Assembly (NCBI GenBank): GCA_030324005.1
Contig: JARDVH010000169.1
Location: 10,958,997-11,022,996, forward strand
Source of the DNA: Negaprion brevirostris
Taxonomy: Eukaryota
Length of the DNA: 64,000 nt
Reading direction: 5' to 3'
Shown here: piece by piece, positions 40,671 to 43,600 of the stretch
Layout: each line of letters begins with the position of its first letter
Numbering within the stretch: position 1 is the first letter of the stretch
Position numbers: made by a program

Positions 40671-43600
40671 TCATCCTCATTACGCGCTGAGCAAGTTGTC
40701 ATAGACTGTTTTGTAATCATGAATAGAATGTACACCTGCACACACATTCTAAAGGTTAAACCAGTGGCAGTAAGCATAATGGTCAACTTGTATTACTTAT
40801 GTTTAGCACCATTATAATATTGATCATATTTACTTTATACCAAGCTTTCTATACAATGCGCGTTCTGCAATGCTGACATTCGTGCAACCTTGCTGTCCAA
40901 AAATTGGCTGCTGTATTTACTGATCTAACAACAGTAACTGTATCTAATTGGCCATGAAAGGCACTATACAAATGCAAATTCTCATTTTCATTAAATTGGG
41001 TACGAGAAACAGACCACCTTTATATGATCTTTTAATAGTTTCACTTCATGATCCAACAAATATGGAAAATATTGTAAACATATCCTGTTAACAGAAGAAA
41101 ATTTCTTTTAAAAATACAACATAATTCCATGCCCACTTTCGCCATCTCAGTACAGAAAGGAATAAGCAAGACAGGCATGAAGGGAATACACAAGGGTGAA
41201 TAAATTTGATTTCACATTTGGATTTGGACGAAGGTTTTACACTGACCAAAGCCAAGACTGGCTACGATTTGCACAAAATGAATTTCAACCGTAGGAATCA
41301 AATTCCTAGGAAATGTGCAAAGACTCCTTACATTTCTGAGGCAAAGCCTTGGCCAATGGAGACTATGCATTTCAGAGTACAAAGGATCCTGAAACTTCCA
41401 GCAAACTTAATAGGTGAGAAAGAGCAGAACCAAAGCTCTGCTCAGGTTTAAATTGCCTGACGTTCATCTGCAGTGTCTCTACTGGAACTTCTGCATTTGT
41501 GTCTACTACAAAACTATTTATCTCTACAAGCTTCTCTCATATGGAAGTCAGCACTACTGGAAAAGTGGATGACCCCAAATCAGCTTCAGCCAGCCAACCT
41601 ACCTCTCTGAAGGAATATACCATTGGACTTTTGATTATGGTCTCTGGACTTATGTGAAAAAATAATTTTTATTTTGTCTCAGGTCTTTGCCCTGTTCCTC
41701 TTTCTTTCCCTTACCCCCCTTTTCACTGCACGAATGCAAAAAGGAGGGGATGTTGCGAACCCTCTTCCACATTTTGAGTGTATGTAAAGTAAATTAAACC
41801 TCTAATCTTAACGCTCCCTGGGGATTGCTGTTGGGTTAGGAGGATTTGATCACTGCAAAGCTGAAAGACTGGAGGAAAATGCAACACCCGCAACAGGGAA
41901 ACTGAAAAAAAAACTGTTCATTTACGGGTGGTGAGAGAAGAAATCAAGGCTGTTTTAAATTAAACTCCTTCACCGAAACAGTATGTATCTTTCCAACAAA
42001 TTGAGAGAAAGACCATTAAGTGTGGAGTGTAGGAAGGCTGGTTGAAGGAAATTTGTGGAAGACAGTTTAGGAATTTGAAACTGCTGATAAAATAGGGAAT
42101 GGGAGATTTTTTTTAAACTTTATTCCAATCCAATCCAATCAAATAAAATCCAATTCAGAGTCCCAACAAGTTGGGACATTCCCAATCCAAGCTGACAAGA
42201 CAGGGCTCTCACCCCCTGTCTTGGGCTTTATCTACATGATCCAAGCAGATTGGAGTAGGTATAGTTCCTCCTCCAAGACTTGATCTCATTTGCATCTTAG
42301 CCAGAAGGCCGAGGTGCCGCTTGAAAAAATTGCTTCAGATGAAGCTAAAATGTGACCCAATGACTTCAACCAAGTACAGCTTGTCGATACTACACTTGAT
42401 CTTAGCTGAAAGGCCAAGAAGCGATTCCTAGATGAGTTGGTCCCCAAGAGCTTGGCCAGATAGGGCTGTCATGGTCACTGCCTCTCCTCTTAGTGAACTT
42501 GCTGGTTTAGAAAAGATGGTATGGGTTGGTTCCTATGACAGCAAGGCTGTACTGCACAAAAAAGCAAATCTCAATACAACCTCCGTATTGCACTGCAATA
42601 ATATTTCAGAATAATGGAAGCTATTTTTGAGGCCAACAACTGTTTGCCCGCTCCTTTGTACAGTCTCCTAACTGGAGTCATGAGCAATGCCTGGAGCACT
42701 TGACCCTTGTCAACCTATAGCCCCCCTGGATCTTGACAGCCTCATTGAAATAATAGCGACACAGAGGACTTGCACAGAATGAAAGAGTTATGACTGTCCA
42801 CAGGATAGTGAGCACAAACCTGCAAGACGTGTGGCCCGCAGCTGCAAACGAATTTTATTCTGAAGGTATGGAATCCCCTCAAACTGATAAGTAGTCTGGC
42901 CTATTGATGGGGGGGAATATATAGGGCAGTGTACATGCAGTCAATGGCATCTTACAAGGTGAAGTATGCAACAATTTTATGTCATCTCATAGTATTCTCT
43001 GCCTGATTGTCAAAGACAGTATTTTCTCTACCCCGATTTGAAATTGGGAGTTATGGCTGCAGTAGCTCAGTAACAGCCTCCTTGCGAAAGTGAAGCTATT
43101 TCATACATTGCTCCTCTGCCAAGCTGAAGCTGGAGAAGTGATCTTTGAAGACCATCTGTGCATATGGTTTCCTGTTCATGCCCTTCTCTTCTGGCAGCTT
43201 CCCCCGCTCTGTGGCGTCTTCCTTGCCAATCCCCACTGTACTCAATATTAAAAGGCAGCATTACCAGGCCACCCACATATAGACAGAAAAACAAATGACG
43301 GCAGATGTTGAAAACATCAAATAAAAACAAAAGCTGGAAGCACTCGGCAGGTCCGGCAGCATCTGTAGAGAGAAAAACATAACTTCTGACACACCTAGAA
43401 CATTAACTCTGATTCTCTCTCCACTAATGCTGCTGGACCTGCTGAGCATTGTACCCTTAAAACAACAACAGCTGTGCGAAAGCAGCCAAATTCCTCTCCG
43501 TGCAGACAAAGTAAACTTTGAAGAGTGCTAAAACAAAGCAGAAGTGGTCAAAAGTCAAACAGCAATTAGCTTTCATGACCTCTTTAAATAGTGCTGGTGA

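What the first reader, a model, noticed from the sequence alone, without database searches (positions are those of the whole stretch)
42107..42425. U2 snRNA-headed retroposon with a second internal U2 copy carrying an octamer motif
Seen in sequence (minus strand, sense to ADK): the element starts exactly at U2 nt 1 and follows U2 for 40 nt (37/40), just past the branch-point recognition sequence GTAGTA. After ~70 nt of unrelated sequence comes a second U2 stem-loop I copy, CTCGGCCTTCTGGCTAAGAT[GCAAATGAGAT]CAAGT (42313-42278), whose 11-nt insertion creates a perfect octamer ATGCAAAT (42295-42288). Then a 10-bp hairpin (42196-42205/42214-42223), an 8-bp inverted repeat (42160-42167/42170-42177), (TTGGA)3, AATAAA and A8. 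Established: the octamer is the distal enhancer element of vertebrate snRNA genes; Keno (Tx1 clade) and Utopia retrotransposons insert into U2 genes near this position; snRNA-headed SINEs (SINEU) are described from crocodilians. Inference: this is a dispersed copy of a shark non-autonomous element whose master sits in a U2 gene, is transcribed from the U2 promoter and is mobilised by a U2-targeting, poly(A)-tailed LINE. The internal U2 copy may aid targeting or expression, and the RNA could act as a branch-point-pairing U2 mimic. No TSD is evident, and I cannot tell whether the family has already been catalogued.
Basis: partly seen in the sequence, partly recalled or inferred. Interest (0 to 1): 0.88.

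Follow-up and report, generated by a model that had tools for sequence, protein, structure and literature searches.

The report
U2-headed poly(A) retrocopy in shark intron
A 319-base retroposed insert in a shark adenosine kinase intron starts with the first 40 bases of U2 spliceosomal RNA, most resembling the snRNA-headed SINEs so far described only in crocodilians, but whether it belongs to a repeat family could not be tested.

Summary
On the minus strand, 42425-42386 matches U2 snRNA nt 1-40 (Rfam U2, 36.6 bits for the head alone, E 1e-6). A second U2 stem-loop I piece lies at 42313-42294 (17 of 18 to model nt 8-25). The hairpins, (TTGGA)n, AATAAA and A8 are at the stated coordinates. Nothing after nt 40 is U2, and the 3' flank is not U2.

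Two points favour a U2-site LINE. The head ends at the nt 38/39 site used by Keno and Utopia (PMC4640811). The rejoined empty site resembles that U2 target (9 of 16; empirical p about 0.01).

The octamer is not special, with 13 copies in the window. There is no TSD and no second copy in 64 kb. No shark genome, Dfam or Repbase could be searched, so family status, partner LINE and master copy remain untested. The U2-mimic idea has no support.

Best reading: a SINEU-like, Tx1/Keno-type-mobilised retroposon (confidence 0.5). Main rival: a one-off template-switch chimera.

The parts
42386..42425 (-). U2 snRNA-derived head, U2 nt 1-40, including an intact branch-point recognition hexamer at 42388-42393. 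Stem-loop I carries two non-standard pairs.
   Evidence: Rfam RF00004: 36.6 bits, E 9.6e-7, for the head alone. 39.9 bits in the 801-nt slice. The only match in the window to the 21-nt head pattern with up to 3 mismatches.
42314..42385 (-). 72-nt spacer of unknown origin. It holds a T6 run (42324-42329) and a 13-bp helix partner (42368-42380) that can pair with head nt 25-37 (42389-42401, 5 G-U pairs).
   Evidence: Sequence. Fold. It adds no meaningful U2 score (versus 26). No homology to the later body (42% of 500 shuffles as good).
42278..42313 (-). Second U2-derived piece. 42313-42294 = U2 nt 8-27 with stem-loop I intact, then either an 11-nt insert and nt 28-32, or a decayed continuation to nt 40. 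It holds the ATGCAAAT at 42288-42295.
   Evidence: model nt 8-25, 17 of 18. (16 of 20 to the head). (alternative gapped alignment). (the octamer is common in the window).
42155..42277 (-). Body of unknown origin: a chain of hairpins, including the 10-bp perfect hairpin 42196-42205/42214-42223 and the palindrome 42160-42177. It is TTGG-rich.
   Evidence: fold z -4.1 sense and -3.7 antisense, so these are DNA-level inverted repeats. (12 TTGG in the element against a window mean of 1.62; 0 of 2417 windows reach 12).
42107..42154 (-). Tail: (TTGGA)-type pentamer array (42124-42154), AATAAA (42119-42124), GTTT, A8 (42107-42114).
   Evidence: TRF period 5, 6.2 copies. Coordinates. The only match in the window to the 22-nt tail pattern.
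42099..42106 (-). 3' half of the insertion site. It begins TCT, as does U2 from nt 39.
   Evidence: It is not U2 beyond the junction.
42426..42433 (-). 5' half of the insertion site. It ends TAGGA, where U2 nt 34-38 reads TAGTA.
   Evidence: the joined site matches U2 nt 31-46 at 9 of 16 (1.0% of all window 16-mers do as well). The central 6 match at 5 of 6 (0.46%).

Best explanation
A retroposed, non-coding, Pol II-type (poly(A)-ended) short element of the SINEU kind.

Proposed architecture: a body and tail of LINE-like character (pentamer repeats, AATAAA, A-run) that has twice acquired a 5' piece of U2 snRNA.

Proposed mechanism:
1. A source copy sits at, or arose at, the nt 38/39 site of a U2 gene, the site that Keno (Tx1 clade) and Utopia LINEs use.
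2. Its RNA therefore starts at U2 +1 and carries U2 nt 1-38/40.
3. The RNA is recognised through its 3' tail or poly(A) by a Tx1/Keno-type LINE protein. The endonuclease of that protein keeps a relaxed preference for the U2 target sequence.
4. Target-primed reverse transcription places a full-length copy, without a target-site duplication, at a U2-target-like site in the ADK intron.

Shown: the two U2 pieces; the exact +1 start; the sharp end at nt 40; the tail; the lack of a TSD; the site resemblance; the shark host.

Inferred: family status; the U2-gene master and promoter; the partner LINE; every step of mobilisation.

This copy itself is most likely inert and decaying. Its head differs from U2 at three positions, all transitions, one at a CpG.
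For: - U2 head from nt 1 to nt 40, E about 1e-6. Second U2 piece, 17 of 18.
- Two separate U2 pieces are what the recurrent 5' additions described for SINEU-1 subfamilies would give (PMC4494074, Results).
- SINEU elements are under 500 bp, poly(A)-tailed and contain oligo-T, and they show TSD, target-site truncation or no change at insertion. This element has all of these traits.
- A Tx1 family with a U2 head exists, and Tx1-Mar co-clusters with Keno.
- The head ends at the Keno/Utopia site. U2 downstream of insertions starts at nt 39 and the upstream fragment is nt 1-38. Keno's 3' target starts TCTGTTCTT.
- The rejoined empty site matches U2 nt 31-46 at 9 of 16, and 5 of 6 at the centre, with empirical p 0.005-0.01. 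This resembles the U2-like junctions of weakly specific crocodilian Utopia.
- Sharks are reported to have Tx1 L1-like repeats but no full L1 (PMC8455134 passage).
- The tail is a pentamer array and the element is TTGG-rich, which is repeat-like rather than mRNA-like.
Against: - Only one copy was seen. There is no second copy of the element or its flanks in 64 kb.
- No partner LINE tail was found in the window.
- No TSD.
- AATAAA lies only 4 nt before the A-run, and the A-run is only 8 nt.
- The site resemblance is a nominal p of about 0.01, found after other flank tests.
- The junction at nt 38-40 could be coincidence. SINEU-3's first U2 piece is 32 bp.
- The translated-ORF searches for other copies and the two prokaryote-contig scans found none; they are weak tests and are listed under Tried and rejected.
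Confidence: 0.5

Rival explanations
1. A one-off chimeric retrocopy. While copying some polyadenylated RNA, a LINE reverse transcriptase switched template to U2 snRNA, as in the snRNA/L1 chimeras of mammals. The result is a single insert that never amplified.
For: - Only one copy was seen.
- Template switching onto snRNAs is documented and naturally gives a 5' end at snRNA nt 1 (PMC4494074 Discussion).
- No family or partner could be found with the tools at hand.
Against: - Two separate U2 pieces would need two switches in one event, or a source RNA that already held a U2 piece.
- The mammalian chimeras are described as flanked by TSDs. None is found here.
- The switch point coincides with the Keno/Utopia site, and the insertion site looks like the U2 target. 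A generic chimera does not predict either.
- The body is repeat-like.
Confidence: 0.27
2. A fragment of a larger, unrecognised repeat. Examples are the fused 5' and 3' ends of a U2-headed Tx1/Keno LINE (a non-autonomous LINE made by internal deletion), or another interspersed repeat that happens to contain U2 fragments. In this case the true borders differ from 42107-42425.
For: - Tx1-11_Crp carries a U2 head.
- Non-autonomous LINEs made by internal deletion are known.
- No TSD marks the borders.
- 5' extensions occur in SINEU-2.
Against: - The U2 match starts exactly at nt 1 and the A8 is followed by unrelated sequence.
- The flanks are not repeated in the window.
- There is no reverse-transcriptase or endonuclease coding remnant next to it. 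99 of the 126 ORFs of at least 75 aa were scanned (the 27 overlapping N runs were left out). The only RT hits are at 53.4-53.9 kb on the other strand.
Confidence: 0.15
3. An in-situ U2 pseudogene, or U2 gene remnant, split by a Keno/Utopia-type insertion at nt 38/39.
For: The head ends at the insertion site. The 3' flank starts TCT and contains TTATCAG, which also occurs in the Keno 3' target printed in PMC6136364.
Against: - The 3' flank gives no U2 match in 233-nt and 65-nt slices.
- Its best local alignment to the 20-nt Keno target is matched by 7.6% of 19,630 random 45-mers.
- A head at about 92% identity next to an unrecognisable 3' part is not what even decay would give.
Confidence: 0.04
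4. A functional U2-like RNA gene, that is, a branch-point-pairing U2 mimic or regulator.
For: The branch-point recognition hexamer is intact. The RNA is predicted to be highly structured (z -4.1).
Against: - It is below the Rfam gathering score, and there is no U2 similarity after nt 40.
- Stem-loop I has two broken pairs.
- The antisense strand folds almost as well (z -3.7).
- The hexamer can be sequestered in a 13-bp helix.
- No octamer lies upstream within 42426-43000.
Confidence: 0.02

Closest known systems
SINEU (SINEU-1 subfamilies with stacked U2 heads, SINEU-3) of crocodilians, Kojima 2015, PMC4494074
   Same: A short (under 500 bp) non-coding retroposon with a 5' head from U2 snRNA and more than one U2-derived piece. 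It has a poly(A) tail, an internal oligo-T and no Pol III promoter. TSDs are often absent.
   Different: - The host is a shark. The paper states that no SINEU was detected outside crocodilians.
- Sequence similarity to SINEU consensus sequences could not be tested.
- Multi-copy status is unknown here.
- SINEU prefers Mariner-N4_AMi sites, whereas this insertion site looks like the U2 target itself.
Keno (Tx1 clade) and Utopia (restriction-like endonuclease) U2-gene-specific non-LTR retrotransposons, PMC4640811
   Same: The U2 head ends at their shared insertion point (nt 38/39). The insertion site resembles their target. Weakly specific Utopia copies outside U2 genes show U2-like junctions and rarely show TSDs.
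   Different: This element has no coding capacity. It is not followed by U2 nt 39 onward. No Keno or Utopia element was identified in the window.
snRNA/LINE chimeric retrocopies made by template switching (U6/L1-type chimeras; cited in PMC4494074 Discussion)
   Same: An snRNA sequence at the 5' end joined to an unrelated poly(A)-ended 3' part.
   Different: Those are described with TSDs and as independent one-off events. Here there are two U2 pieces, no TSD and a target-like insertion site.
U2 spliceosomal RNA gene (Rfam RF00004)
   Same: The first 40 nt.
   Different: It lacks everything after nt 40 and scores below the gathering threshold.

Membership tests
SINEU (snRNA-headed SINEs) | 5' head derived from U1 or U2 snRNA | tested here: met
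   Rfam U2 nt 1-40, 36.6 bits, E 9.6e-7. Second piece nt 8-25, 17 of 18.
SINEU (snRNA-headed SINEs) | Short non-coding retroposon with a 3' poly(A) tail | tested here: met
   319 nt. The longest frame over it is 70 aa, with no homologue. A8 preceded by AATAAA. The tail is short.
SINEU (snRNA-headed SINEs) | Internal oligo-T and no recognisable Pol III promoter | tested here: inconclusive
   T6 at 42324-42329. No tRNA, 5S or 7SL match in Rfam. Promoter absence cannot be proved.
SINEU (snRNA-headed SINEs) | Many dispersed copies sharing head-body structure (a retrotransposition unit, not independent chimeras) | not testable with these tools
   One copy in the 64-kb window. No chondrichthyan genome, Dfam or Repbase is available. 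Protein-space and prokaryote-contig proxies were empty.
SINEU (snRNA-headed SINEs) | Shared target preference or tail with a Tx1-clade LINE | tested here: inconclusive
   The insertion site resembles the Keno/Utopia U2 target, p about 0.005-0.01. No partner LINE was found in the window.
Keno/Utopia insertion in a U2 gene | Preceded by U2 nt 1-38 | tested here: met
   The head ends at nt 38-40 (site).
Keno/Utopia insertion in a U2 gene | Followed by U2 from nt 39 | tested here: not met
   No U2 match in the 3' flank. Alignment to the 20-nt Keno 3' target is not above chance (7.6%).
Keno/Utopia insertion in a U2 gene | Encodes, or shares its 3' end with, an element encoding RT plus APE-type or restriction-like endonuclease | not testable with these tools
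   No coding remnant in or next to the element. No LINE library is available.
Template-switch snRNA chimeric retrocopy | snRNA at the 5' end, unrelated poly(A) RNA at the 3' end, flanked by TSDs | tested here: inconclusive
   The first two features are present. No TSD was found.
U2 snRNA gene (RF00004) | Full-length match at or above the gathering score, with Sm site and 3' stem-loops | tested here: not met
   39.9 bits against 46. 36.6 of those bits come from nt 1-40.

The most novel reading that the evidence does not exclude
Sharks harbour their own lineage of U2-headed, poly(A)-tailed non-autonomous retroposons. These are born inside U2 genes at the Keno/Utopia nt 38/39 site and are transcribed from the external U2 snRNA promoter. 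A U2-site-specific LINE with relaxed specificity spreads them to U2-target-like sites. That would be an independent origin of SINEU-type elements outside crocodilians. It would also answer the question Kojima (2015) left open, namely how snRNA-headed SINEs get transcribed.
Probability: 0.3. Interest if true: 0.62.

Novelty: new member of a known kind. Interest (0 to 1): 0.4.

Why it matters
snRNA-headed SINEs have been described only from crocodilians (PMC4494074). How they are transcribed is unresolved, because U1 and U2 promoters lie outside the transcribed region.

A shark element has three relevant traits: its U2 head starts at +1, the head stops at the insertion point of U2-targeting LINEs, and it landed in a site that looks like the U2 target. 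Together these point to a concrete, testable route: co-transcription from a U2 gene, then mobilisation by a U2-site LINE.

If a family is found, it shows that this route arose more than once in vertebrates. It would also give markers for elasmobranch phylogeny and a new class for shark genome annotation. If the element is single-copy, it is an ordinary chimeric retrocopy.

Tried and rejected
1. Whole-window Rfam at gathering level: 0 matches. The U2 head shows only in E-value mode.

2. 3' flank as U2 nt 39 onward: no U2 match in two slices. The local alignment to the Keno target is not above chance. Rejected.

3. TSD search: not above shuffles.

4. Copies in the window: none for the element or its flanks. 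The 26 non-self repeat pairs in the window do not involve it.

5. Copies by proxy in protein space:
- The 70-aa antisense frame (42071-42280) and the 63-aa frame (42243-42431) found no candidates among 5.8 billion proteins.
- HMMER over 1.84 billion representatives gave one hit, P0001. This is a 1411-aa repetitive protein that looks bacterial, at 28% identity over 4 stretches. I judged it spurious.
- These are weak tests, because non-coding repeats are rarely predicted as proteins.

6. Two exact-pattern scans of genome contigs: 0 hits. They are uninformative, because that collection holds only bacteria and archaea.

7. Octamer as a signal: rejected.

8. Strand-specific RNA structure: rejected. 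Both strands fold about equally far below their shuffles.

9. Homology between the spacer and the later body: none.

10. [quoted passage not shown] Keno details are second-hand from PMC4640811 and PMC6136364.

11. Literature searches (one search failed on term length) found no report of a U2-headed SINE in cartilaginous fishes.

Not checked: Repbase Reports, Dfam and supplementary files.

Full report
**What is there.** Read on the minus strand, 42425-42107 is a 319-nt unit.
- Its first 40 nt align to the Rfam U2 model from nt 1 to nt 40, and the match then stops abruptly.
- The head alone scores 36.6 bits (E 9.6e-7). The best alignment over a wider slice scores 39.9 bits (E 2e-6). So the remaining 150 nt of that alignment contribute about 3 bits and are not U2.
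- The match is below the family gathering score of 46, which is why the whole-window scan at gathering level returned nothing.
- The head differs from the Rfam consensus at nt 3, 10, 18 and 19. Two stem-loop I pairs are non-standard.
- After a 72-nt spacer comes a second U2 stem-loop I piece at 42313-42294. It matches the head at 16 of 20 and model nt 8-25 at 17 of 18, with the stem intact.
A gapped alignment of the two copies also allows a decayed continuation to the nt-40 position.
- The rest is a chain of inverted repeats, a TCCAA x6 array, AATAAA, GTTT and A8.
- The element is strikingly TTGG-rich: 12 occurrences against a window mean of 1.62, and 0 of 2417 windows reach 12.

**What is not special.**
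- ATGCAAAT occurs 13 times in the window, so one inside a 319-nt element is expected in roughly one case in fifteen.
- The predicted RNA structure is far below shuffles on both strands (z -4.10 and -3.68). It therefore reflects DNA-level palindromes, not a strand-specific RNA fold.
- There is no target-site duplication.

**Context.**
- An ORF at 20087-20317(-) carries a PfkB domain. It was found in a Pfam scan of 99 of the 126 ORFs of at least 75 aa; the 27 that overlap N runs were left out.
- Its best relatives are shark adenosine kinases: Chiloscyllium punctatum at 96% identity over 91% of the frame, and Carcharodon and Mustelus at 100% over 78%. In all, 661 proteins had E up to 0.001 among 675 candidates.
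- The window is therefore elasmobranch, not human, and the element lies in an ADK intron in the sense orientation.
- Only this one exon frame was searched.
- A decayed reverse-transcriptase remnant lies at 53464-53908(+). Both Pfam hits are below cut-off, and its nearest solved relative is R2 at E 4e-4. It is unrelated to the element's tail.

**Is it in a U2 gene?** No.
- The 3' flank gives no U2 match in 233-nt or 65-nt slices.
- Its best local alignment to the 20-nt Keno 3' target printed in PMC6136364 is matched by 7.6% of 19,630 random 45-mers.

**Links to U2-targeting LINEs.**
- Kojima and Jurka (PMC4640811; I read the outline and the sections on distribution, insertion sites, strict specificity and U2-like targets) report two relevant facts. 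U2 sequence downstream of Utopia insertions starts at nt 39, with nt 1-38 expected upstream. Keno (Tx1 clade) uses the same site.
- The head here ends at nt 38-40.
- The same paper reports that weakly specific crocodilian Utopia copies outside U2 genes often show U2-target-like junctions and rarely show TSDs.
- I therefore put the 8 nt before the head beside the 8 nt after the A8 and compared them with U2 nt 31-46, taken from the Rfam consensus. The result is 9 of 16 identical, which 1.0% of all 16-mers of the window reach. The central 6 match at 5 of 6 (0.46%), the central 8 at 6 of 8 (0.52%) and the central 10 at 7 of 10 (0.48%).
- This is suggestive, not decisive, and it was found after other flank tests.

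**Comparison with SINEU.** Kojima 2015 (PMC4494074; I read the outline, the whole Results, the Discussion and selected passages) describes crocodilian SINEs with these traits:
- U1 or U2 heads, poly(A) tails and internal oligo-T;
- repeated 5' addition of U2 pieces;
- TSD, target-site truncation or no change at insertion;
- mobilisation by Tx1-Mar LINEs that cluster with Keno, one of which has a U2 head.

The paper states that none was detected outside crocodilians. The present element has the head, the stacked second U2 piece, the poly(A) end, a T6 run and no TSD. A whale-shark genome paper (passages only) states that chondrichthyans lack full L1 but have Tx1 L1-like repeats, so a poly(A)-type partner is plausible.

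**What could not be done.** The defining test, copy number and shared structure of copies, needs a chondrichthyan genome or a repeat library, and none is reachable.
- The window holds one copy.
- Proxy searches with translated frames of the element found nothing usable.
- Two exact-pattern scans of the prokaryote contig collection found nothing and say nothing.
- Literature searches found no U2-headed SINE in cartilaginous fishes. Passages in PMC5381603, PMC7245038 and PMC5786205 cite only Kojima 2015 for snRNA-headed SINEs; PMC5381603 ascribes them to crocodilians.
- Repbase Reports, Dfam and supplements were not seen. The Keno paper of 2004 is not held.

**Verdict.**
- Most likely (0.5): a SINEU-like retroposon mobilised by a Tx1/Keno-type LINE, whose head reflects origin at the U2 nt 38/39 site.
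- Main rival (0.27): a one-off template-switch chimera.
- The octamer and U2-mimic ideas are not supported.
- Novelty is at most a new member of a known kind in a new host lineage.

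Noticed in passing
window 42099-42106 and 42426-42433: When the element is removed, the rejoined insertion site resembles the U2 nt 31-46 target of Keno/Utopia: 9 of 16, and 5 of 6 at the centre.
   Followed up: yes
window 42107-42425 (-): TTGG occurs 12 times in the element against a window mean of 1.62, and it is strand-asymmetric (CCAA occurs only 3 times). On the plus strand the tail array reads as repeated CCAAT. Origin and meaning are unknown.
   Followed up: partly
window 42389-42401 / 42368-42380 (-): A 13-bp helix with 5 G-U pairs can pair the U2 branch-point recognition region of the head with the start of the spacer.
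   Followed up: partly
window 20087-20317 (-): Adenosine kinase exon (PfkB domain). Its best matches are shark ADK proteins.
   Followed up: yes
window 53464-53908 (+): Decayed non-LTR reverse-transcriptase remnant in two frames. Both Pfam RVT_1 hits are below cut-off. The nearest solved relative is an R2 protein at E 4e-4. Its clade was not determined.
   Followed up: partly
window 10467-10650, 12770-12998, 15422-15649; also 11173-11331, 15563-15719, 27937-28076: Several 70-90% identical interspersed repeats of 150-230 bp, in both orientations, probably SINE or LINE-tail families.
   Followed up: no
window 8730-8957 / 9605-9832: A 229-bp inverted repeat pair at 92.6% identity, about 650 bp apart. 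It may be the ends of a DNA transposon or a foldback.
   Followed up: no
window 46846-47012 / 47509-47674 and 49117-49347 / 49683-49913: An inverted pair (88%) and a direct pair (88.7%) of 170-230 bp a few hundred bases apart. They may be transposon termini or local duplications.
   Followed up: no
window 52947-52992 and 53093-53138: 46 bases that are 100% identical on either side of the N run 52993-53092. This looks like an assembly-gap overlap rather than biology.
   Followed up: no
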